From an uncultured delta proteobacterium (GTDB lineage Bacteria; Desulfobacterota; Binatia; UBA9968), in contig CAWFJP010000017.1 in assembly GCA_963816145.1 (NCBI GenBank), positions 32,001 to 96,000 on the forward strand: a stretch of 64,000 nt of DNA, given 5' to 3'. The position numbers and the translations under genes were made by a program. This document shows positions 39,869 through 51,316 of this stretch, in pieces. Below the pieces are notes generated by a model that did not search any database, had not been told where the DNA came from, and saw nothing but the letters and a program-made list of their open reading frames with translations. How positions within the stretch are numbered: the first letter of the stretch is position 1; the number at the start of each line of letters is the position of its first letter.

Positions 39869-41392
39869 TCAGACCTTGTTCTTGGCGGGGGTCTCGGATC
39901 CGGCCGGCTTCCGCGACCGCGTCGACGCGCGCGCTGGGGGCTTCTTCGGGATCGCCTTTCGCGGCACACGCGCTGCCACAGGCGCGGCGGCCGCGACGCG
40001 GGCGCGCGGACGTCTTGGCTTGGTACGACCGGGGGGCTCGGCGGTCGTGTCGGTCGGCATCGGCTCGTCATTGAACCGATCCTCCTCGGCCCGCTCTTCC
40101 AGCTCGAATCGGTCGACAGCGTCGACGGGTTGCGTATCCAGCATGCCTAGGCGCCCGGCTTCCATCACTTCTTGGGATGGGGCGATTGCGGGCGACGGGC
40201 CGGTCTGCTGCAACGCCGGCCCCTTAAGCACGCGCAGGCCGCCTCGACGATCCCGCTCGAGTCGCACGAGGCCCTCGCGCTGACACGCGCGCAACAGATC
40301 GATCAGCCCCATGAAACCGTATCGGCGCTCGTCGAAGCCGCCCCGGGTGGCTCGTAAGAGCTGCTTGACGTTGCGCAAGTACATCGGCCACCGTGCCGCT
40401 GTAGCAGCGGTCAGGATCTGGCCCACCAGACGGACCCCGTCAGCCTGATCGCCCTTCGGGACGACGGGTGCCTCGATCGGGGCGAGCTGAGACACCTCCT
40501 CCACGGCCTCGGCCAACACCGCCCGCGGCTCGGTCTCTGCCTCGGGCGCAGCCGCGCGACCCTCGTCGCGCGTCTCTGCGACGGCGACGGGCCGGCTCGC
40601 CACGACCGCGGTCGAAGACTCGCTCTCGTCGAACTTCTCGTTGAGCTCGACCATGACGCTTCGACCGGTGTGCTTGAGCTGGGCGAGACCCGATTGCGCG
40701 AGCTTCTCGACGAAATCGAGGAATGACGACGCACCATAAGTCCGCTCGGAGAAAGTCGAGTCGAGCTGGAGCAGCGTGCTCTTGAGCAGGCCGATCTGCG
40801 GCGAGACTTCCCGCTCGGACAGAATTTTCAGCGCGCGTCGCACGATGGGGAAGGCCTGCGCGATGGGCGCGGTGGCGGCGGACGTCACCGGGCGGTCGCC
40901 CTTGGCGACCGAGCGGCGGCCGCGCGTCAGGTTCTCATAGGCGATGAACTCGTGGCAGTTGCGCTGGAGGATGGTGCTGGTGAACGCCCTGCCACCGACG
41001 ACGAAAACTTTCTTGTCGTATTGCTTGAGCTTCTCGACCAGCGAGAGGAAGTCGCTGTCGCCGCCAACGATCACGTACGCGTTGATATGCGGGTGCGTGA
41101 AGGCCATTTCGAGGGCATCGAGCGCCAGATTGATGTCGGCGCCGTTCTTGTCGCCGCCGGGCGTCAAGTTGCGCTGCACCAGGCGGATGGCGTGTTGGGT
41201 GAGGTGGCGACTGTACTCGCCCGCGCGCGTCCAGTCGGCGTAAGCGATCTTGGTGACCACCTCGCCGCGCTCCTTCAAGGCGTCGAGGATGGCGCCGACG
41301 TCGAAATTCTCACCAAGCGTCGATTTGACGCCAATCTCGATGTTGTCGAAGTCGATGAACACAGCGATGTTAAGACGGTCCTGATGGGGCAA
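39869..41392 (-). CDS. NYN (LabA/DUF88) domain protein with two LOTUS/OST-HTH domains
   Basis: VFIDFDN, KNGADINLALDA, GGDSDF; DSTFSERTYG.SSF and GFDERRYGF; basic low-complexity tail; TTG start. Confidence 0.88.
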   Translation of the reverse strand: MPHQDRLNIAVFIDFDNIEIGVKSTLGENFDVGAILDALKERGEVVTKIAYADWTRAGEYSRHLTQHAIRLVQRNLTPGGDKNGADINLALDALEMAFTHPHINAYVIVGGDSDFLSLVEKLKQYDKKVFVVGGRAFTSTILQRNCHEFIAYENLTRGRRSVAKGDRPVTSAATAPIAQAFPIVRRALKILSEREVSPQIGLLKSTLLQLDSTFSERTYGASSFLDFVEKLAQSGLAQLKHTGRSVMVELNEKFDESESSTAVVASRPVAVAETRDEGRAAAPEAETEPRAVLAEAVEEVSQLAPIEAPVVPKGDQADGVRLVGQILTAATAARWPMYLRNVKQLLRATRGGFDERRYGFMGLIDLLRACQREGLVRLERDRRGGLRVLKGPALQQTGPSPAIAPSQEVMEAGRLGMLDTQPVDAVDRFELEERAEEDRFNDEPMPTDTTAEPPGRTKPRRPRARVAAAAPVAARVPRKAIPKKPPARASTRSRKPAGSETPAKNKV

Positions 41393-41851: not shown

Positions 41852-42198
41852 AGGCGCTTTCCGGGCGGCGCTGCGGTCGGAGGGGGCGCGAAGTGTTCCA
41901 GATCGCATCGCTCGCTCTGGCAAACGGTTGTCGCCCGTCCCCAAAAGGGCGCCGAACTTTATTTTGGCACCTGAAAAATTCCGAATCCGCGAAGTCGGGC
42001 TAGTAGAGCATAAATAGCGAGCGCGCCTGCAGAGGTTGGGTTTCGTGCTCGACTTTATCTAGGTTTGTCCGAGGCCAGTCTCGTTGGTTCCCGTCAAGAA
42101 AAGACCCCTTATTCTGCTTCGACCATCTTGACGCAACGCATCACAGCTACATATATCTAGCATTGGCAATAAACCTTTATATATTAATATCTTATAAA

Positions 42199-42257
42199 AT
42201 GTTCCCTAAATACATCGATATATTTGACTTAGAATAGGGAACATATTATATTAGGCA
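42199..42257 (+). promoter_or_regulatory. Sigma70-type promoter of higBA with inverted-repeat operator; probably leaderless
   Basis: TTGACT (42224-29), 17 bp, TATATT (42247-52), then ATG 5 nt later. Perfect IR ATGTTCCCTA (42199-208) / TAGGGAACAT (42235-44). Confidence 0.75.
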
Positions 42258-42548
42258 ATGCGGATCGTCGCAAAGAAGACTCTGCGCGAATTTTGGGAGC
42301 GCTGTCCGGACGCTGAAGATCCCCTCTTGGCGTGGTTTCGCGAAGTTGAAAAGGAAGATTGGAGCAAGCCGTCGCAGGTAAAAGATAAATATAGAAGTGC
42401 AAGTTTTGTCGGGGATCGCATTGTGTTCAATATCAAAGGAAATGATTACAGGCTCGTTGTGAAAATAAATTATCCGTACCGGGTTGTTTATGTGCGTTTC
42501 ATCGGCACGCATAAAGAATACGATGAGATCGACGTTGAGGAGGTGTGA
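42258..42548 (+). CDS. higB: HigB mRNA interferase toxin
   Basis: MRIVAKKTLREFW...W..P...VFNIKGNDYRLVV.I.Y...YVRFIGTHKEYD.ID. Confidence 0.93.
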   Translation: MRIVAKKTLREFWERCPDAEDPLLAWFREVEKEDWSKPSQVKDKYRSASFVGDRIVFNIKGNDYRLVVKINYPYRVVYVRFIGTHKEYDEIDVEEV

Positions 42549-42549
42549 G

Positions 42550-43776
42550 ATGAACAATATTCGAGCAATTCGAAGCGAAGCAGATTACGACGCCGCGCTC
42601 GCGCGTATCGATGCCCTTATGGACGCCGAGAGTGGTACCCCCGAGGGCGAAGAACTCGACGTGCTTACTGACCTTGTTGAACTTTATGAGGCGAAGCATG
42701 TTCCCATGGGTTTTCCGAGGCCGCTTGAAGCAATCCGCTTTCGCATGGAGCAGGCAGACCTTTCACCACGTGATCTTGTTCCGTTCATGGGCAGCCGTGC
42801 AAAAGTCTCCGAGGTGTTGTCCGGCAAGCGCCCACTCACCATGCAGATGGCTCGCGCCCTGCACGCCAATCTCGGCATTCCCGCTGATGTGCTGTTACAG
42901 CAACCGGGTGGTGAGTTGCATTCGGCGCTTGAAGGTACCGAGTGGCACCGCTTTCCATTGGCGGAAATGGCAAAACGTGGATGGATCGAAAAGCGTCGCA
43001 ATCTTGACACTCTTGCCGAAGAAATCATGCGGGATCTGATTGGTCGGGCGGGAGGCGAATATGTTTTGCCTGCAGCGTTCTTTCGGAAGAATGATCACGC
43101 CCGCATCAACGCGAAAACGGACCCATACTCTCTCAAAGTTTGGTGCTGGGAAGTGCTAGCGCGAGCGAATGCCCATAAGCTGCCTGTCAGCTTTAAACCC
43201 GGCACGGTCGATCTCACTTTTCTGCGGAAAGTGGCCACATTGAGCTGGTCGCAAGACGGTCCCCGACTCGCCCAAGAGTTCCTCGCTAACCACGGTATTC
43301 ATCTCGTGTATCTTGAGCATTTACCGCGTACGCACCTCGACGGCGCGGCTCTTCAACTCGCCGACGGCACACCCGTTATTGGACTGACCTTGCGCTACGA
43401 TCGGCTCGACAACTTCTGGTTCTGCTTGCTGCACGAACTTTCTCATATCGGCCGCCATATGAACGAGACGAAGAATGAAGCGTTCGTCGATGATCTGAGT
43501 CTTCGTGACGTGCAAGGCGCGCGACGTGATCCACGAGAAACCGAAGCGGATGAGTGGGCCGAGAATGGTCTCATTCCAGAAGACATATGGAATACGAGCA
43601 AGGTAAAGGACAAGCCAACGCCGCTGGCCGTTATGGAACTAGCCCAGCGGCTCGGCATTCACCCCGCCATCATTGCCGGTCGCATCCGCCACGAGACACG
43701 GAACTTTCGCCTGCTGTCCCATTTTGTGGGGACAGGCACGCTACGAAAACAGTTTCTTAAAGGCGGAGAGCAATGA
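42550..43776 (+). CDS. HigA antitoxin fused to ImmA/IrrE-type Zn metallopeptidase
   Basis: N-terminal HigA (DYDAAL..., EAIRFRMEQ, VSEVLSGKRPLT); C-terminal LDGAA, LRYDRLDNFWF.LLHELSH (HExxH), E.EAD.WA. Confidence 0.88.
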   Translation: MNNIRAIRSEADYDAALARIDALMDAESGTPEGEELDVLTDLVELYEAKHVPMGFPRPLEAIRFRMEQADLSPRDLVPFMGSRAKVSEVLSGKRPLTMQMARALHANLGIPADVLLQQPGGELHSALEGTEWHRFPLAEMAKRGWIEKRRNLDTLAEEIMRDLIGRAGGEYVLPAAFFRKNDHARINAKTDPYSLKVWCWEVLARANAHKLPVSFKPGTVDLTFLRKVATLSWSQDGPRLAQEFLANHGIHLVYLEHLPRTHLDGAALQLADGTPVIGLTLRYDRLDNFWFCLLHELSHIGRHMNETKNEAFVDDLSLRDVQGARRDPRETEADEWAENGLIPEDIWNTSKVKDKPTPLAVMELAQRLGIHPAIIAGRIRHETRNFRLLSHFVGTGTLRKQFLKGGEQ

Positions 43777-43952
43777 TTTTTTAGCTCCAACATCACAATG
43801 TACGATGTTAAAACATGGCTAATCTTGAGGGGCGTGAGAGACGCAAGTATCGAACGAAGGACTCGACGTGCGCAGAGTTATCTAGAGTTGTAGGATCGAC
43901 TTGAAAGCTAAAGGCGGACCTGAACTCATTTTTGACTGTGGAGGAAGAAGAC

Positions 43953-45509
43953 ATGGCTACACGCACATGGGACAAAGACCGAGCCTCGAAGCGCATCGAT
44001 GCACGCATCGCGGAGCTTCCGATCGGCGACATTGAAATCAAGAAGTTCGTACGCGAGACGGACTTGACCAGTCTCCCGCGGAACGTGGCGTACCGCCTTC
44101 ACGGCGTCCACCTCTATGCCGACATTCTCAATCTGGCGGACATGCTTCACGTAACCGAGGTGGAAGGCGAGACTTGCCACCGGCGGACGCTCCGATTTCT
44201 GAACCTGCATTACCGAGCCGTCCATCGGACGCTTCAGCGGGTGGACGCCATCTTTGTTGACTTTCACAACCAGCGCCTGCACTCCGTGATCGCGAAGCCG
44301 TACGACTCGGAGGTCGATCGCATTCACAAGGCCGTCGCCGTGGCGCAGTTGATCATCGACGTGCTCGCGCAGACCGGCGAGGACGCGGACCATCCTGCCG
44401 CGAAGGTCAGAGTTGGGATCGACACCGGTGAAGCCCTCGCTGTGAACAATGGACGCCGAGGCCATCGGGAACCCCTGTTTCTGGGGGAGCCAGCGAATCA
44501 CGCTGCCAAGCGCGCGTCAGGCGGGAAAGGGACGGGGATCTATCTGACGAGCAAAGCCCGGGAGACGCTCGGTCTGAAGCGCGTTGATAACGAAGATGCA
44601 ACGGCGCTCACAACCGAAGAAATCGCGGCGTCGCAAGACGAGGCTGCTCTGGATGTCACGGCCGACGATATCGTGAAGGAATGGCGCGAGGATCTCAAGA
44701 ATAGCCCAATCGGCGCATTCGGCTTCAGCGGCCATACGCCGCCCTTCAGGACGCTCGACATCGAAGAACTGTCAGTAAAGAACTCGCGGCGTCAGGATGC
44801 GGCTACGGTCTATTCCGATATCGACGGCTTCACCGCCTACGTCACCAAGAACATCACCACTGACACCGCTTCGAAGCATGTCGTGCGCGCGCTCCACGTT
44901 CTGCGCAGTGAACTGGACGCTGTGCTTCACACCGACTTCGCCGGCCGCAAGGTGCGGTTTATCGGGGACTGTGTTCATGGGCTGCTGGTGGAAGGTACGG
45001 CGCAGACGTCGGATGCGATCGAAACAATCAGCAACATGACTCTGTGCGCCGGAGGCATGCGCAGCAGCTTCGAGCTCGCGCTGTCAAAGCTGAAAGCCAA
45101 TGGCACCGACGCGTCAGAGCTCGGGTTGGCAATCGGGTTCGAGTACGGGCCAATGAACGTGACCCGGCTTGGCATCAAGAGCGAGCTCGTGCGCTGCTCG
45201 GCGAGCCGAGGTGTTGTTGCCGCCGAACGAGAACAATCCCGCTGCTCGGGGACGGAGACGGCGATCGGGCCCATTGCGTACGATAGTAGCAATGATGCGG
45301 CGCGCACCGCGTTTGGGAAATCGCGGAAGCGATCCGGGCTGACCTACGACGTCGCTGTCAACGAGCTGGCCGACAAGGGCGATGCGGTCGCGAAGGCTGC
45401 CCGTGCCATGGGGACGGCCGGGTCGCTGAAACCCGCGACTTCGGCACCTTCCGCTTTCAGCTTCCCGAATCGACCGACGGGTCCCGCGAAGCCGGACGGT
45501 TTCGCATGA
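43953..45509 (+). CDS. Tandem class III nucleotide cyclase, Pycsar PycC-like
   Basis: Domain 1 YADILN...RVGIDTG...LGEPANHAAK; domain 2 YSDIDGFT...RFIGDC...IGFEYG; GGAGGA RBS; operon context. Confidence 0.85.
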   Translation: MATRTWDKDRASKRIDARIAELPIGDIEIKKFVRETDLTSLPRNVAYRLHGVHLYADILNLADMLHVTEVEGETCHRRTLRFLNLHYRAVHRTLQRVDAIFVDFHNQRLHSVIAKPYDSEVDRIHKAVAVAQLIIDVLAQTGEDADHPAAKVRVGIDTGEALAVNNGRRGHREPLFLGEPANHAAKRASGGKGTGIYLTSKARETLGLKRVDNEDATALTTEEIAASQDEAALDVTADDIVKEWREDLKNSPIGAFGFSGHTPPFRTLDIEELSVKNSRRQDAATVYSDIDGFTAYVTKNITTDTASKHVVRALHVLRSELDAVLHTDFAGRKVRFIGDCVHGLLVEGTAQTSDAIETISNMTLCAGGMRSSFELALSKLKANGTDASELGLAIGFEYGPMNVTRLGIKSELVRCSASRGVVAAEREQSRCSGTETAIGPIAYDSSNDAARTAFGKSRKRSGLTYDVAVNELADKGDAVAKAARAMGTAGSLKPATSAPSAFSFPNRPTGPAKPDGFA

Positions 45510-47293
45510 TCTGGTACTTCCAAGACAGCGCGCGCAGCAAACGGGAGCGGGAGGCGATCGAACGGCTCGCATCGCAGGTTCCCTGGATGACACCGCGTGG
45601 GCTCAGGATCGACGGCTCGTTGCGTCTGATCTGGGACATTGATATCTCGACTGGCGAGCGTACATACCCGGTGTCCTTGCGGTACCCGAACCACTTTCCG
45701 TACTCCCCGCCCGTGGTGCTGCCGCGCGGGGACTCGGACCGATGGTCGTCACATCAGTATGGGCCAGGCGGTGAATTGTGCCTCGAGTACGGTCCGGACA
45801 ACTGGCATCCGGAGATCACCGGCGCCGACATGGTCGTGAGTGCCTTTCGACTCTTGCAAGGCGAAAGCCCGACCAGCGAGGAGACCGCTGTCGCCTCTCG
45901 TCACAAGATCACGCTCGGGCAGTACGTCCGAAACAGGTTTTCGAGATTCGTGATCACGCGGGCTGCGGTCGAACTCTTCGCGACTCTCGACGAGGGTGTA
46001 GCAGTCTTGGGCAAGGCGGTAGGCGCCTTGCGCGAAGAGTCGTGGGTCACCGCTATCAGTTCTGTCTCACTGCCTAGCGGTGAGACTTGGATCGAGCCGG
46101 AGATGCCAGAGCCATTTCGCACTGAAGGATGGGAACGGGATATCGCCGGCTTCAAGTGGCCGGAGGACGTTCGGCTACCGTCAGCGAAGACCCCGGCCGA
46201 CTTGCGCGCAGTGACCGCCGAGCGCGGCTTGGCGATTCCAAAGGTGTCACACGTCCTGCTCTTTCAGGGATCGAGCGTACACGTTTATGGCCTCGGCGAT
46301 GAGGACGGCCAGGTTTGGCGCCCAGTTGTAATTATGCCTCCCCCTCCATCGACACGGCTCGACACCGATCATGCGGTTCTAGCGGAGCGAAAAATCGGCG
46401 TTGTCGGATGCGGGTCCATGGGCAGCAAGATTGCCGTGATATTGGCCCGTTCTGGAGCGAAGAGATTTTTCCTGGTCGACGATGACATCATGCTGCCTGA
46501 CAATCTCGTGCGCCACGACTTGGATTGGCGGGAGATCGGAACTCATAAAGCCGACGGCGTTGCCCGCCGAATTCAGCTCGTCAATCCTGGAGCGATTTGC
46601 GAAAAGCGCCGGCATCGTCTGGGCGGACAGGAATCCAGCGGAAGCGTCGAGACCCTAATTGAGAGTCTCGCCGAGTGCGACATGCTAATCGATGCAACCG
46701 CAAATCCGATCGCTTTCAATTATTTGTGCGCGGCTGTCGCGGTCGCCAAGACGACCCTCGTCTGGGCCGAGGTGTTCGGCGGGGGCTTTGGTGGACTCAT
46801 AGCTCGCCACCGTCCTGGCCATGAACCTGATCCGGCCTCGATGCGCCGGACCATCGAGGCCTGGTGCGCTGATCAAGGCAAGCCGATCCCTCGATCGACG
46901 ACCGATTATGGCGGCGCAGAAGAAGCGGCTCTGATCGCCGACGACGCAGACGTGACTACAATTGCGGCACATGCCGCGCGGCTTGCGATCGACACACTCA
47001 TCTCACGGACGCCCTCAACTTTTCCGCACTCGGTTTACCTTGTCGGCCTCGCAAAGCAGTGGATATTCGACGCACCATTTGACACATATCCCATAGACGT
47101 TGGGCAACCGATGACCTCCGAGGCATCGACACCAGCGAATTCTGAAGAAAGGGCCGCTGAAGTTGCGAGGATCGTCCAGTTGCTAGCGGATCACCAGGAT
47201 GCAGGTACTTTTGCCGGCTCAGATAACCAAACGGATACGGGAGGAACTCCGACGAGCCAAGACTCAGGAGATCGGGGGGCTGCTGATGGGTGA
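45506..47293 (+). CDS. E2-E1(ThiF) fusion, Cap2-like ubiquitin-like conjugation enzyme
   Basis: E2: YP..FPYSPP.V, HQY...ELCL (C92). ThiF: GVVGCGSMGS, DDD, NLVRH, K. ATGA overlap with the cyclase. Confidence 0.88.
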   Translation: MIWYFQDSARSKREREAIERLASQVPWMTPRGLRIDGSLRLIWDIDISTGERTYPVSLRYPNHFPYSPPVVLPRGDSDRWSSHQYGPGGELCLEYGPDNWHPEITGADMVVSAFRLLQGESPTSEETAVASRHKITLGQYVRNRFSRFVITRAAVELFATLDEGVAVLGKAVGALREESWVTAISSVSLPSGETWIEPEMPEPFRTEGWERDIAGFKWPEDVRLPSAKTPADLRAVTAERGLAIPKVSHVLLFQGSSVHVYGLGDEDGQVWRPVVIMPPPPSTRLDTDHAVLAERKIGVVGCGSMGSKIAVILARSGAKRFFLVDDDIMLPDNLVRHDLDWREIGTHKADGVARRIQLVNPGAICEKRRHRLGGQESSGSVETLIESLAECDMLIDATANPIAFNYLCAAVAVAKTTLVWAEVFGGGFGGLIARHRPGHEPDPASMRRTIEAWCADQGKPIPRSTTDYGGAEEAALIADDADVTTIAAHAARLAIDTLISRTPSTFPHSVYLVGLAKQWIFDAPFDTYPIDVGQPMTSEASTPANSEERAAEVARIVQLLADHQDAGTFAGSDNQTDTGGTPTSQDSGDRGAADG

Positions 47294-47714
47294 GCACGTC
47301 TGTGACGAGCTGTTCCGAGTCGTCGATATTTCGGTTCAGCGGTCGGGAGGATCGCAGGTCCATTTCGTACGCGACGCGTCCAGCCATGCCACTCAGCTGC
47401 AGGCGTTCTTTGCGCGTACGGGCAATGATTTCACGCGCTTCAATTACCTCGGCGAGTGGCATTCGCATCCGACGTTTGCGCCGGCTCCCAGTTCGACCGA
47501 CTTCGATTCCATGCAATCGATCGTCGACAATCCGGACGTTGGTGTGAATTTTTTGATACTCCTAGTGTTCAAGCTGGCTAGCCGAAAGAGACTGGCAGGA
47601 ACCGCAACAGTGTTCAGGCCGCATCAGCCATGGACGAGTGTGGTTGTTATGACCGAAGAGAACGGAACGGGCTCGCGTCTTGAGCGCGCGCTGCCTTCGT
47701 GGCTGCGAGGATAG
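47199..47714 (+). CDS. JAB/MPN metalloprotease, Cap3-like
   Basis: E24(IGG)...YLGEWHSHP...PSSTD, the JAMM motif. Confidence 0.92.
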   Translation: MQVLLPAQITKRIREELRRAKTQEIGGLLMGEHVCDELFRVVDISVQRSGGSQVHFVRDASSHATQLQAFFARTGNDFTRFNYLGEWHSHPTFAPAPSSTDFDSMQSIVDNPDVGVNFLILLVFKLASRKRLAGTATVFRPHQPWTSVVVMTEENGTGSRLERALPSWLRG

Positions 47715-47846: not shown

Positions 47847-48755
47847 ATGAAAGAGCGTTTTGAGGGTGGCACCGGCCGCGGGTTGCTTCTCGATGTACTT
47901 CAGAAGCAGGACATCGTCCGAAACGACAAGTCGCTCGCCGAAGCGCTTGCCGAGGGAGGAGAGATCGTTCAATTCGACGGCGGCGCGGACATCGTTCGAC
48001 AGGACGGCGCTGACAACGATGTCTTCTTCTTGCTCGCCGGCGATGCGAACGTGCTGGTTAACGATCGCTTTGTCGGGACGCGGACGGAAGGGACGTGTAT
48101 CGGCGAGATGGCCGCTCTCGATGCCGCCGCGCGGCGTTCCTCGACCGTTCGCGCAAATTCGGTTGTCGTGGCGTTGAAGGTTCCGGAACCGGCTTTTCGG
48201 GCAGCGTGTGAGGCGCATCCCCTTGTGTTCAAGGCTCTCTCCCAGCTCGTCTCTCATCGTCTGAGACAACGTTCAGCGTTCGTTCAGCCGCCGAATCCAC
48301 AGCCAGTGCTCTTCATCGGCAGTTCCACTGAGGCACTTTCAATCGCGAACGAATTGCAGGCTGGTTTCAAGTACGACAAGTTCAACGCGATTATCTGGAA
48401 GGACGGAGTGTTCGGGCCCGGCGGCGTCGCCTTTGATTCCCTCGCGCAGATTGCCGGCGGCTCAGATTTTGCCGCCTTCATCATTTCGCCAGACGACACA
48501 GTCATCAGCCGCGAGGCAGAGAAACTGGCCCCTCGTGACAATGTGATCTTCGAGCTTGGCCTCTTCATGGGCGTGCTCGACCGACAGCGCGTCTTCTTGA
48601 TTCGCGAGCACGATGCCGATGTGAAGATTCCTTCGGACCTGCTCGGCATTACACAGGTGACCTACGTCCTGAAGAAGGGCGGCGACCTCACGACGGCGCT
48701 CGGTCCCGTATGCACTGAGCTGCGCAAAGCAATCGCCACGCACGGCGTTCGCTGA
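47847..48755 (+). CDS. cNMP-binding domain + TIR-like effector (PycTIR-like)
   Basis: CNB: RQDG, GEMAAL...RSSTVRA. TIR: LFIGSSTE, DFA.F...PDD, PRDNVIFELGLFMG, PSDL.G. Confidence 0.92.
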   Translation: MKERFEGGTGRGLLLDVLQKQDIVRNDKSLAEALAEGGEIVQFDGGADIVRQDGADNDVFFLLAGDANVLVNDRFVGTRTEGTCIGEMAALDAAARRSSTVRANSVVVALKVPEPAFRAACEAHPLVFKALSQLVSHRLRQRSAFVQPPNPQPVLFIGSSTEALSIANELQAGFKYDKFNAIIWKDGVFGPGGVAFDSLAQIAGGSDFAAFIISPDDTVISREAEKLAPRDNVIFELGLFMGVLDRQRVFLIREHDADVKIPSDLLGITQVTYVLKKGGDLTTALGPVCTELRKAIATHGVR

Positions 48756-48806: not shown

Positions 48807-49518
48807 AAATTTCAGGGGTCGGGTCTAGCATCGTAGCATTCAGGCTACTACGCGTTGAGTCTGGGAACACAGAAATGGAACACAGTGTCAGGCTTTGGTT
48901 ATTTGTTTATGAGTCCCCCGCCGAACAGATGAGTTAAAATTATCTAAGAACCCAAAGCCCGAAACTATTGTCTATTCCACTATCGTCTATTGCACGAACC
49001 GCAGACATTTCGCGCACCCCTTTGGGAGGACGAAGGTCTAGCGCTAGCTCACCGGCTCCGCCACGAAGATCGGAATCACCCGGGTCGTTCGAGTCTGATA
49101 CTCCGAATACGGCGGATAGGCCGCCACGGCGGCTTTCCACAGGCGTTCTCGCTCCGCCGTGTCGGTGACCTCGCGCACCCGCATCTTCCGCACCACTGCC
49201 AGATCGCGAAGCTCCACTAGCGGATTGGCACGCAGGTTGTAGACCCAAACCGGATTCTTGGGCGCTCCGCCCGTCGACCCGACCAGCACATAGTTGGTGC
49301 CGTCCTTGACACGCATCAGCGGCGTCTTGCGAATGGCTCCGGTCTTGTTGCCTGTGTGAGTGACGATGATGACCGGCAATCCGGTATCGCGCAGCGTGTT
49401 GCCTTCGGCGCCGCCCGTACGCTCGTAGAGTTCGACCTGCTCGCGCACCCAATCTCTCGGGCTCGGGATGTATTCAGCCATGGGCTAATCTCCTCGACAT
49501 GGTTACTCGGCTCCGGGG
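48807..49518 (+). repeat. Direct repeat copy 1 (~710 bp) containing the REP-like element and a DDN gene
   Basis: Near-identical to 50605-51316 (offset 1798) with scattered substitutions. Confidence 0.95.
49044..49481 (-). CDS. Deazaflavin (F420)-dependent nitroreductase family protein, copy 1
   Basis: G.KTG..RKTPLM, S.GGAPKNP.W.YNL.ANP, Y..YQ..T.R.IP.F. Confidence 0.92.
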   Translation of the reverse strand: MAEYIPSPRDWVREQVELYERTGGAEGNTLRDTGLPVIIVTHTGNKTGAIRKTPLMRVKDGTNYVLVGSTGGAPKNPVWVYNLRANPLVELRDLAVVRKMRVREVTDTAERERLWKAAVAAYPPYSEYQTRTTRVIPIFVAEPVS

Positions 49519-50604: not shown

Positions 50605-51316
50605 AAATTTCAGGGGTCGGGTCTAGCATCGTAGCATTCAGGCTACTACGCGTTGAGTGTGGGAACACAGAAATGGAACACAGTGTCAGGCTTTGGTTAT
50701 TTGTTTATGAGTCCCCCGCCGAACAGGTGAGGTAAAATTATCTAAGAACCCAAAGCCCGAAACTATTGTCTATTCCACTATCGTCTATTGCACGAACCGC
50801 AGACATTTCGCGCACCCCTTTGGGAGGACGAAGGTCTAGCGCTAGCTCACCGGCTCCGCCACGAAGATCGGAATCACCCGGGTCGTTCGAGTCTGATACT
50901 CCGAATACGGCGGATAGGCCGCCACGGCAGCTTTCCACAGGCGTTCTCGCTCCGCCGTGTCGCTGACCTCGCGCACCCGCATCTTCCGCACCACTGCCAG
51001 ATCGCGAAGCTCCACTAGCGGATTGGCACGCAGGTTGTAGACCCAAACCGGATTCTTGGGCGCTCCGCCCGTCGACCCGACCAGCACATAGTTGGTGCCG
51101 TCCTTGACACGCATCAGCGGCGTCTTGCGAATGGCTCCGGTCTTGTTGCCTGTGTGAGTAACGATGATGACCGGCAATCCGGTATCGCGCAGCGTGTTGC
51201 CTTCGGCGCCGCCCGTACGCTCGTAGAGTTCGACCTGCTCGCGCACCCAATCTCTCGGGCTCGGAATGTATTCAGCCATTGGCTTGTCTCCTCGACATCG
51301 TTATTCGGCTCCGGGG
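50605..51316 (+). repeat. Direct repeat copy 2 (~710 bp)
   Basis: Matches 48807-49518. Confidence 0.95.
50842..51279 (-). CDS. Deazaflavin-dependent nitroreductase family protein, copy 2
   Basis: Identical to copy 1 except EVTD to EVSD. Confidence 0.92.
   Translation of the reverse strand: MAEYIPSPRDWVREQVELYERTGGAEGNTLRDTGLPVIIVTHTGNKTGAIRKTPLMRVKDGTNYVLVGSTGGAPKNPVWVYNLRANPLVELRDLAVVRKMRVREVSDTAERERLWKAAVAAYPPYSEYQTRTTRVIPIFVAEPVS

What the first reader, a model, noticed from the sequence alone, without database searches (positions are those of the whole stretch)
45400..45509. Cyclase ends in a flexible CD-NTase-like tail (...FSFPNRPTGPAKPDGFA), the predicted conjugation handle
Seen: a Pro/Ala/Ser-rich linker ending in G-F-A, with the stop overlapping the E2-E1 start. 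Known (recalled): Cap2-associated CD-NTases end in similar disordered tails with terminal F-[AG], which the E1 adenylates and the JAB cleaves. No ubiquitin-like gene is in the operon. Inference: the same tail module has been grafted onto an unrelated cyclase fold, so the cyclase itself is the modifier and its conjugation target is unknown.
Basis: partly seen in the sequence, partly recalled or inferred. Interest (0 to 1): 0.75.

Follow-up and report, generated by a model that had tools for sequence, protein, structure and literature searches.

The report
Pycsar cyclase carries a conjugation tail
An antiviral signalling enzyme in this bacterium ends in a floppy tail matching the tails of unrelated enzymes that a ubiquitin-like ligase attaches to other proteins, so it is very probably regulated in that same, already described, way.

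Summary
The cyclase (43953..45509, 518 aa) ends in a Pro-rich tail, ...FSFPNRPTGPAKPDGFA. AlphaFold2 predicts the tail to be disordered. Its stop codon overlaps the start of an E2-E1 fusion gene (ATGA).

The operon has four genes: a clade-A two-domain PycC cyclase, a Cap2-like E2-E1, a Cap3-like JAB and a cNMP-binding TIR effector.

In 80 related genomic loci, 30 of 30 cyclases followed by an E2-E1 end in GF[AS]. None of 43 cyclases followed by an E2-only gene does. Two partner swaps inside the family each carry the matching tail.

The same E2-E1 family (PADLOC PDLC00855) also sits next to true CD-NTases. Six of six of those CD-NTases end in nearly the same extended motif, for example ...LSFPAHPVTPNKSAGFA.

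The idea is already in print: "Type II Pycsar" is said to conjugate its signalling enzyme (Ye et al. 2024 preprint). The scan has also noted E2-associated Pycsar on other DNA (e1-1178130). This locus is a new member of a known kind. Conjugation itself and its target remain untested here. Interest 0.4.

The parts
43953..45509 (+). Clade-A (two-domain) PycC cyclase, 518 aa. The longest ORF starts at TTG 43932.
   Evidence: PADLOC PycC PDLC00762 scores 714 bits. PDB 6yii_A scores 588 bits over residues 3-492. GGAGGA lies upstream of ATG 43953.
44781..45248 (+). C-terminal class III cyclase domain, with the YSDIDGFT and RFIGDC motifs.
   Evidence: Pfam PF00211 best stretch covers 284-439 of the 525-aa ORF. 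The motifs are printed and are invariant.
45420..45506 (+). Disordered Pro/Ala/Ser-rich tail, residues 490-518.
   Evidence: pLDDT is below 50 with no secondary structure. P505, P511, G516 and F517 are invariant.
45498..45506 (+). Terminal Gly-Phe-Ala, the predicted site of adenylation and conjugation.
   Evidence: 29 GFA plus 1 GFS in 30 of 30 E2-E1-linked loci, 0 of 43 E2-only-linked. Codons vary synonymously.
45506..45509 (+). ATGA overlap of the cyclase stop and the E2-E1 start.
45506..47293 (+). Cap2-like E2-E1 fusion, 595 aa.
   Evidence: PADLOC E1-E2 PDLC00855 scores 654 bits over the full length. Pfam gives ThiF at 292-425 and a weak UQ_con at 52-129.
45779..45781 (+). E2 catalytic Cys92 (GELCLEY).
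   Evidence: Invariant in 27 of 27 aligned E2-E1 proteins.
46379..46780 (+). E1 (ThiF-type) adenylation domain with GCGSMG and invariant R315, D325, N333, R336, K348 and D392.
   Evidence: Pfam PF00899. Alignment to ThiF 1zud.
46865..46867 (+). Candidate E1 thioester Cys454 (EAWCADQ).
   Evidence: Present in 21 of 27 aligned proteins, so it is not invariant.
47199..47714 (+). Cap3-like JAB/JAMM peptidase, 171 aa. It overlaps the E2-E1 3' end by 95 nt.
   Evidence: PADLOC JAB PDLC00893 scores 207 bits. Pfam Prok-JAB. HSHx7SxxD is present and invariant.
47847..48755 (+). PycTIR-type effector: cNMP-binding domain plus TIR NADase domain, 302 aa.
   Evidence: Pfam PF00027 plus PF10137. PADLOC PycTIR PDLC02371 scores 313 bits.

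Best explanation
This is a four-gene 'type II Pycsar' anti-phage operon. The two-domain PycC cyclase makes a cyclic mononucleotide that switches on the cNMP-binding TIR effector.

The cyclase ends in a disordered tail with a free Gly-Phe-Ala carboxy terminus, and this tail is the substrate handle of the neighbouring E2-E1 fusion. The inferred steps are:
1. The ThiF-type E1 domain adenylates the terminal Ala.
2. The cyclase passes as a thioester to the E2 Cys92, possibly via Cys454.
3. The cyclase is ligated to a target amine, which primes or boosts signal production.
4. The JAB peptidase removes the conjugate.

Shown here: the gene content, the intact catalytic motifs, the disorder of the tail, and the strict co-variation of tail type with partner type, both across homologues and across two unrelated enzyme folds. 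Inferred by analogy with type II CBASS: adenylation, thioester formation, conjugation, JAB cleavage and the effect on activity. The target is unknown.
For: The tail is disordered.

Tail and partner co-vary:
- 30 of 30 E2-E1-linked cyclases among 80 genomic loci end GF[AS]. None of 43 E2-only-linked cyclases does.
- 120 of 120 listed close homologues end G[FY]A.
- Partner and tail switch together at least twice. L056 has a core nearest to E2-only-linked cyclases (65% against 57%) but has an E2-E1 and a GFA tail. L019 is the reverse case (70% against 60%).
- Codons of G, F and A vary synonymously, and the junction type varies.

The same E2-E1 family, PDLC00855, flanks CD-NTases of three different PADLOC cyclase models. 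Six of six of these end in the same extended motif and GF[AG].

The enzymes look functional. E2 Cys92, the E1 adenylation motifs and the JAMM motif are invariant.

The literature supports the mechanism in CBASS. Cap2 adenylates and conjugates the CD-NTase C-terminal Gly or Ala, and Cap3 reverses it (Ledvina preprint; Jenson et al. PMC10097602; passages read). 'Type II Pycsar' is stated to work likewise (Ye et al. preprint; passages read).
Against: No experiment or read data bears on conjugation here.

The window's E2-E1 is only distantly related to the one structurally studied Cap2: 27-29 bits, over the adenylation core only.

The candidate E1 thioester Cys454 is missing in 6 of 27 homologues. 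The relay may therefore differ from E. cloacae Cap2.

One linked cyclase ends in GFS rather than GFA (L016).

Most E2-E1-linked cyclases form one clade, so much of the 30 of 30 is shared ancestry. The independent support rests on two swaps and on the CD-NTase comparison. The tree is a quick search, and L056 is a long branch.
Confidence: 0.8

Rival explanations
1. The tail is only a non-covalent docking peptide. It recruits the E2-E1 to the cyclase, for example to hold it inactive, and the cyclase is never conjugated.
For: Co-variation of tail and partner would also arise from a pure binding interface. The E1 Cys is not invariant.
Against: The conserved element sits exactly at the free carboxy terminus and ends in Ala or Gly in 29 of 30 PycC and 6 of 6 CD-NTase partners. 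That is what adenylation needs. E2 Cys92, the adenylation residues and a JAMM peptidase are all conserved. Covalent conjugation has been shown for type II CBASS (passages).
Confidence: 0.08
2. The E2-E1 acts on a separate ubiquitin-like protein encoded elsewhere. The cyclase tail is then a target or an adaptor, not the modifier.
For: I did not search the genome for Ubl genes. Bil and Bub systems use separate Ubls (passages).
Against: The operon leaves no room for a small gene. The genome holds a single copy of this E2-E1 and no second module. The tail motif tracks the E2-E1 family across folds. Published Cap2 structures have the CD-NTase C-terminus in the adenylation site (passages).
Confidence: 0.04
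3. The terminal GFA is conserved because its codons carry the ribosome-binding or start signals of the overlapping E2-E1 gene. This would be a nucleotide-level constraint, not a protein-level one.
For: The stop and start overlap as ATGA.
Against: All three codons vary synonymously. The junctions include ATGA, GTGA, TTGA, TGATG and TAATG forms, yet the peptide stays the same.
Confidence: 0.01
4. The ThiF-type domain activates the tail for thiocarboxylation or another non-conjugative chemistry, as with ThiS or MoaD.
For: The best PDB sequence match of the E1 core is ThiF.
Against: A fused E2 domain with an invariant Cys, together with a JAB peptidase, points to transfer and removal rather than sulfur chemistry. 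The context is a defence operon.
Confidence: 0.03

Closest known systems
Type II Pycsar, also described as the E2-associated 'Pycsar-like-4' subclade (Ye, Gong, Chambers and Corbett 2024 preprint 10.1101/2024.11.21.623953; Pucsar preprint 10.64898/2026.08.12.744502; passages read)
   Same: A PycC-type cyclase, a fused E2-E1, a JAB and a cNMP-sensing effector. The papers state or suggest that the signalling enzyme is ligated to unknown targets.
   Different: The passages I could read give no tail motif, no linked-versus-unlinked comparison and no experiment on a Pycsar cyclase. Ye et al. cite van den Berg et al. 2024 (Cell Host Microbe) for these pathways; that paper is not held, and supplements are closed.
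Type II CBASS (CD-NTase + Cap2 + Cap3), especially operons using E1-E2 family PDLC00855 such as Klebsiella plasmid pKPX-2 (L101), the Phaeobacter piscinae plasmid (L102) and the Acinetobacter pittii plasmid (L103)
   Same: The same E2-E1 family, with 37% identity over 94% of the length to the Klebsiella protein. The same JAB. The same gene order, with overlapping stop and start. The same extended substrate tail ending in GF[AG].
   Different: The signalling enzyme is a class III cyclase fold, not a CD-NTase: no oligonucleotide-cyclase model matched it. The signal is a cyclic mononucleotide. The effector is a CNBD-TIR rather than CapV, Cap4 or SAVED.
Canonical clade-A Pycsar, PaPycC (PDB 6YII) with PycTIR
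   Same: The same two-domain cyclase fold (588 bits) and the same effector type.
   Different: Pseudomonas-type members (L038-L040) are followed by an E2-only gene (PF20298+PF20272). They lack an E1 and a JAB, and their tails carry a [PA]-[HY] motif followed by 2-11 more residues instead of a terminal GFA.
Thoeris operons with Cap2/Cap3 (preprint 10.64898/2025.12.03.692087, passages read)
   Same: A signal-generating enzyme of yet another fold (TIR) is reported to carry the C-terminal tail needed for Cap2/3 conjugation.
   Different: The enzyme and the signal differ. I did not examine those sequences.

Membership tests
Pycsar | A PycC-family nucleotide cyclase. | tested here: met
   PADLOC PycC PDLC00762 scores 714 bits. 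It scores 588 bits to PaPycC 6yii_A. Clade A is defined as two consecutive cyclase domains (PMC11224242, passages).
Pycsar | An adjacent effector with a cyclic-nucleotide-binding domain fused to a TIR or TM killing domain. | tested here: met
   PF00027 plus PF10137, and PADLOC PycTIR at 313 bits.
Pycsar | The cyclase makes cUMP or cCMP. | not testable with these tools
   Clades A-D are reported as cUMP makers (passages). The Pucsar preprint's AF3 modelling favours ATP for 'Pycsar-like-4' (passages). This is unresolved.
Type II (Cap2/Cap3-regulated) signalling system | A fused E2-E1 with an E2 catalytic Cys and an intact adenylation site. | tested here: met
   PDLC00855 at 654 bits. C92, GxGxxG, R336 and D392 are invariant.
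Type II (Cap2/Cap3-regulated) signalling system | An E1 catalytic (thioester) cysteine. | tested here: inconclusive
   The only candidate is Cys454, present in 21 of 27 homologues. No alignment to Cap2 C548 was obtainable.
Type II (Cap2/Cap3-regulated) signalling system | A JAB/JAMM peptidase with the metal-binding motif. | tested here: met
   PDLC00893 at 207 bits. E, HxH, S and D are invariant.
Type II (Cap2/Cap3-regulated) signalling system | The signalling enzyme has a disordered C-terminal tail ending in conserved Gly or Ala, found only when Cap2/Cap3 are present. | tested here: met
   pLDDT is below 50 for residues 490-518. Counts are 30 of 30 against 0 of 43. The criterion is from Jenson et al. 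(passages).
Type II (Cap2/Cap3-regulated) signalling system | Covalent conjugation of the enzyme, reversed by the JAB. | not testable with these tools
CBASS | The signalling enzyme is a CD-NTase. | tested here: not met
   Only PycC models matched the cyclase. No PADLOC oligonucleotide-cyclase model matched at E<=0.01.

The most novel reading that the evidence does not exclude
The tail, the E2-type partner and (where present) the JAB form a portable 'priming cassette' with family-specific address codes. One E2-E1 family (PDLC00855) reads an extended tail of about 17 residues, F-P...P-x-x-P-x-G-F-[AG], on at least two unrelated enzyme folds.

Within clade-A PycC every assessable locus (76 of 76) has some E2-type partner, and each partner type has its own tail code:
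- GFA at the very end for the E2-E1 fusion.
- GGNR[HN]A for the Prok-E2_B+ThiF fusion.
- A [PA]-[HY] site with 2-11 trailing residues for the E2-only partner.

The E2-only form would make its thioester without ATP, by cutting the tail itself, as reported for the Serratia E2-CBASS. The reference PaPycC-type Pycsar would then also be conjugation-regulated.
Probability: 0.3. Interest if true: 0.6.

Novelty: new member of a known kind. Interest (0 to 1): 0.4.

Why it matters
This locus gives a clean natural test of what a Cap2-type ligase recognises. The same extended tail sits on two unrelated enzymes served by the same ligase family, and the tail is exchanged whenever the partner is exchanged. 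The substrate address of these bacterial ubiquitin-like systems can therefore be predicted from sequence, and tested by tail swaps. The result also suggests that the whole two-domain PycC clade, not just a few operons, is controlled through its C-terminus. What the enzyme is attached to, and why attachment primes signalling, is still open for CBASS and Pycsar alike.

Tried and rejected
- Complex prediction of the full E2-E1 with the cyclase C-terminal half (residues 240-518), using alignments A2 and A1. The result was no verdict (score 0.00, controls not run). It counts neither for nor against binding.
- A test of whether the upstream HigB toxin and XRE-M78 genes belong to the system. A tblastn of both against the 80 loci found no hit at E<=1e-5; the script then stopped on the empty output. 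I treat them as a separate neighbouring module.
- A search of 400 other genomes sampled from the window's phylum with the E2-E1. Only partial (ThiF-region) matches appeared and no full-length relative. It gave no comparative material, only a sign of sporadic distribution.
- The explanation by nucleotide-level constraint from the overlapping start. Rejected.
- A sequence match to structurally studied Cap2 (7to3, 7tsq). At 27-29 bits it was too weak to map the E1 Cys.
- Papers not obtainable: Ledvina 2023 by PMC id (the preprint was read instead), van den Berg 2024, the Hobbs and Kranzusch review, Burroughs 2015 and Tal 2021. Their content may bear on the novelty claim. Supplements are closed.
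- Paper search was badly framed and mostly returned hepatitis C virus papers.
- Searches that bear on 'not in print':
  - Pycsar+Cap2+Cap3, 13 papers.
  - 'Type II Pycsar', one work in two copies.
  - Pycsar, ubiquitin-like, PycC, JAB.
  - PycC+Cap2, one unrelated yeast paper.
- The look-up of earlier scan notes near this place returned nothing.

Full report
**What is there.** On the + strand the window holds four tightly packed genes.
- Gene 1 (43953..45509; the longest ORF starts at 43932) is a cyclase with two class III domains. PADLOC PycC PDLC00762 scores 714 bits. Pfam PF00211 matches. It scores 588 bits over residues 3-492 to PDB 6yii_A. A 2024 paper (PMC11224242, passages) calls that structure PaPycC, a clade-A PycC with two consecutive cyclase domains.
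- Gene 2 (45506..47293) is an E2-E1 fusion. PADLOC E1-E2 PDLC00855 scores 654 bits over its full length. Pfam finds ThiF, plus a sub-threshold UQ_con match at residues 52-129.
- Gene 3 (47199..47714) is a JAB/JAMM peptidase.
- Gene 4 (47847..48755) is a cNMP-binding plus TIR effector, matching PADLOC PycTIR.

The ATG at 43953 is preceded by GGAGGA and gives the 518-aa length of most homologues.

**The observation.** The cyclase ends ...GSLKPATSAPSAFSFPNRPTGPAKPDGFA. Its TGA stop overlaps the E2-E1 ATG as ATGA at 45506..45509. The last 29 residues are 21% Pro, against 2.2% in the rest of the protein. An AlphaFold2 model built on a 26-row alignment has mean pLDDT 86.6. In that model residues 490-518 are below 50 and have no secondary structure. 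The match to the crystal structure also stops at residue 492.

**Is the tail tied to the E1?** The best 120 of 1529 database homologues, all at least 74% identical, end in G[FY]A: 117 GFA and 3 GYA. Their genomic context is not known.

For context I fetched 80 genomic loci (87 relatives, best 80 kept) and classified the gene that follows the cyclase.

| Gene after the cyclase | Loci | Complete C-termini | Ending |
|---|---|---|---|
| Homologous E2-E1 | 30 | 30 | 29 GFA, 1 GFS (L016) |
| E2-only gene of about 250 aa (PF20298 E2-ntca + PF20272 E2-Crich) | 44 | 43 (L068 is truncated) | 0 GF[AS] |
| Prok-E2_B+ThiF fusion (L074, L080) | 2 | 2 | GGNR[HN]A |
| Not assessable | 4 | 0 | none |

- A JAB follows the E2-E1 in 28 of the 30 E2-E1-linked loci. 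The exceptions are L006, where the E2-E1 is truncated, and L008, where the contig ends.
- The four loci that could not be assessed are L015 (runs off the contig), L055 and L059 (truncated) and L057 (frameshifted).
- Of the 43 E2-only-linked tails, 39 carry a [PA]-[HY] dipeptide in the last 12 residues, followed by 2-11 more residues. None of the 30 E2-E1-linked tails does.

In the alignment of 26 E2-E1-linked cyclases, P505, P511, G516 and F517 are invariant, and A518 is present in 25 of 26.

**Ancestry or function?** I built a quick maximum-likelihood tree of the cyclase cores with the last 45 residues removed. It had 70 rows. Six incomplete rows and five identical rows were dropped, as listed.
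- Most E2-E1-linked cyclases fall in one clade, so much of the 30 of 30 is inherited.
- The partner label still needs 4 changes, and starred branches force at least 3.
- L056 has an E2-E1 and a GFA tail but sits among E2-only-linked cyclases.
- L019 has an E2-only partner and an ...RPYCR tail but sits inside the E2-E1 clade.

Plain pairwise identity agrees. The L056 core is 65% identical to its best E2-only-linked relative and 57% to its best E2-E1-linked one. For L019 the figures are 60% and 70%.

Two cautions apply: the careful tree search did not finish, and L056 is a long branch.

The three terminal codons vary synonymously across 26 distinct junctions: four Gly, two Phe and four Ala codons. 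The junction itself varies between ATGA, GTGA, TTGA and TGATG forms. The constraint is therefore on the peptide, not on the overlapping start.

**The same tail on another fold.** A tblastn of the E2-E1 against plasmids found 249 records, 126 of them covering at least 80% of the query. Three diverse records were opened: Klebsiella pKPX-2, a Phaeobacter piscinae plasmid and an Acinetobacter pittii plasmid.
- All three are ordinary type II CBASS operons.
- In each, the gene before the E2-E1 matches a PADLOC oligonucleotide-cyclase model (PDLC00783, 00770 and 00773).
- Each E2-E1 belongs to the same family as the window's, PDLC00855, at 562-642 bits.
- Their CD-NTases end ...LSFPAHPVTPNKSAGFA...LVFGGEDRRPTEPKGFG and ...LTFPSTPVYPNKPGGFA. 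The window's cyclase ends ...FSFPNRPTGPAKPDGFA.

I then made a search seeded by the ligase rather than by the cyclase. PDLC00855 was searched in 401 genomes of the phylum of G401. It matched 4 genomes, 3 of them new. In all 3 the upstream gene is a CD-NTase that ends GFA or GFG after the same Pro-spaced stretch.

So 6 of 6 CD-NTases served by this E2-E1 family share the extended motif with the PycC. The tail follows the ligase family, not the enzyme fold.

**Are the enzymes intact?** I aligned 27 E2-E1 proteins (the window plus 26).
- E2 Cys92 (GELCLEY) is invariant.
- So are the GxGxxG loop and the residues that align with the ThiF adenylation core: R315, D325, N333, R336, K348 and D392. Naming their roles rests on my knowledge of E1-like enzymes.
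- The only candidate E1 thioester cysteine, Cys454, is present in 21 of 27.
- The JAB keeps Glu, HSH, Ser and Asp of the JAMM motif.
- The window's E2-E1 is only remotely similar to the structurally studied E. cloacae Cap2: 27-29 bits, in the adenylation core only.

**Mechanism.** The best reading follows published type II CBASS. Cap2 adenylates and thioesters the CD-NTase C-terminal Gly or Ala and ligates it to targets. This raises signal output. Cap3 reverses the ligation (Ledvina preprint and Jenson et al., passages).

Here the cyclase already ends at the reactive Ala, so the JAB is more likely a deconjugase than a processing enzyme. All covalent steps are inferred, and the target is unknown.

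**Novelty.**
- Ye et al. [quoted passage not shown] They cite Ledvina, Jenson and van den Berg 2024. The last paper is not held.
- A 2026 preprint describes a 'Pycsar-like-4' subclade linked to E2, E1 and JAB genes and suggests ligation to targets.
- A 2025 preprint reports Cap2/3-type tails on Thoeris TIR proteins.
- In the passages I read, and in searches, I found no tail motif analysis or experiment for a Pycsar cyclase. Unseen papers and closed supplements may hold one.
- Earlier notes of this scan on other genomes name the same closest kind (e1-1178130) and similar tail-tagging modules.

**Verdict.** This is a new member of a known kind. The added value is the linked-versus-unlinked test and the cross-fold tail match.

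**Distribution.** The genome has one copy of the E2-E1. None of 400 other sampled genomes of its phylum has a full-length relative. The closest loci are in Acidobacteriota MAGs, and relatives are scattered through Pseudomonadota. This is the sporadic pattern expected of a mobile defence operon.

Noticed in passing
L019:7509-8282, L038:7539-8312, L042:7536-8300 and 41 further loci (not in the window): Clade-A PycC genes without an E1 are not free-standing. In 44 of 80 loci an E2-only gene (PF20298 E2-ntca + PF20272 E2-Crich, about 250 aa) follows directly, with no JAB. Their cyclase tails carry a [PA]-[HY] motif followed by 2-11 variable residues (39 of 43), for example ...VRPYAEGK or ...EPMRAHAKL. 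This recalls the Serratia E2-only CBASS, where the E2 itself trims the CD-NTase tail and forms the thioester (preprint 10.1101/2022.05.25.493364, passages). The Pseudomonas-type reference PaPycC (loci L038-L040) belongs to this group.
   Followed up: partly
L074:7280-9379 and L080:7472-9391: A third partner type occurs in two Rhizobiaceae loci: a Prok-E2_B + ThiF fusion of 699 and 639 aa after the cyclase. The cyclase tails end ...SSGGNRHA and ...NSGGNRNA. No JAB was detected with the window's JAB as query.
   Followed up: partly
window 46865-46867, and the alignment: The candidate E1 thioester Cys454 is replaced by Ser, Phe or Trp, or is shifted, in 6 of 27 E2-E1 homologues. E2 Cys92 is invariant. 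Some members may pass the substrate from the adenylate straight to the E2.
   Followed up: no
window 42258-43776: A HigB-type toxin gene (PF09907) overlaps a 408-430 aa protein with a C-terminal M78/IrrE peptidase domain, directly upstream of the cyclase. Neither is found beside the 80 homologous operons, so it is probably a separate toxin-antitoxin module. The local GC dips to 0.43 at 42000-42499.
   Followed up: partly
window 48807-49500 and 50605-51300: A direct repeat, 99% identical, with 1798 nt spacing. It duplicates an F420H2-dependent quinone reductase gene (PF04075, two 145-aa copies). Between the copies lies a PIN (VapC-like) gene with an Rv0623-like antitoxin gene.
   Followed up: partly
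L077:8207-9535: One E2-only locus carries, after the E2 gene, a PycTM-type effector and a second, single-domain cyclase (PF18967, PF00211) before a TIR effector fragment. These may be two Pycsar modules in a row.
   Followed up: no
L006, L057, L058: Three metagenome-assembled relatives have broken operons: an E2-E1 cut at 460 aa with no JAB, and frameshifted cyclase and/or E2-E1 genes. These could be real decay or long-read assembly errors.
   Followed up: no
window 47199-47293: The JAB gene starts 95 nt before the E2-E1 stop. The E2-E1 C-terminal extension that causes this overlap varies in length among relatives, with overlaps from about 30 to 95 nt.
   Followed up: no
window 39869-41392 (- strand): A 507-aa protein with an N-terminal NYN nuclease domain and an OST-HTH/LOTUS domain lies just upstream of the island.
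   Followed up: no
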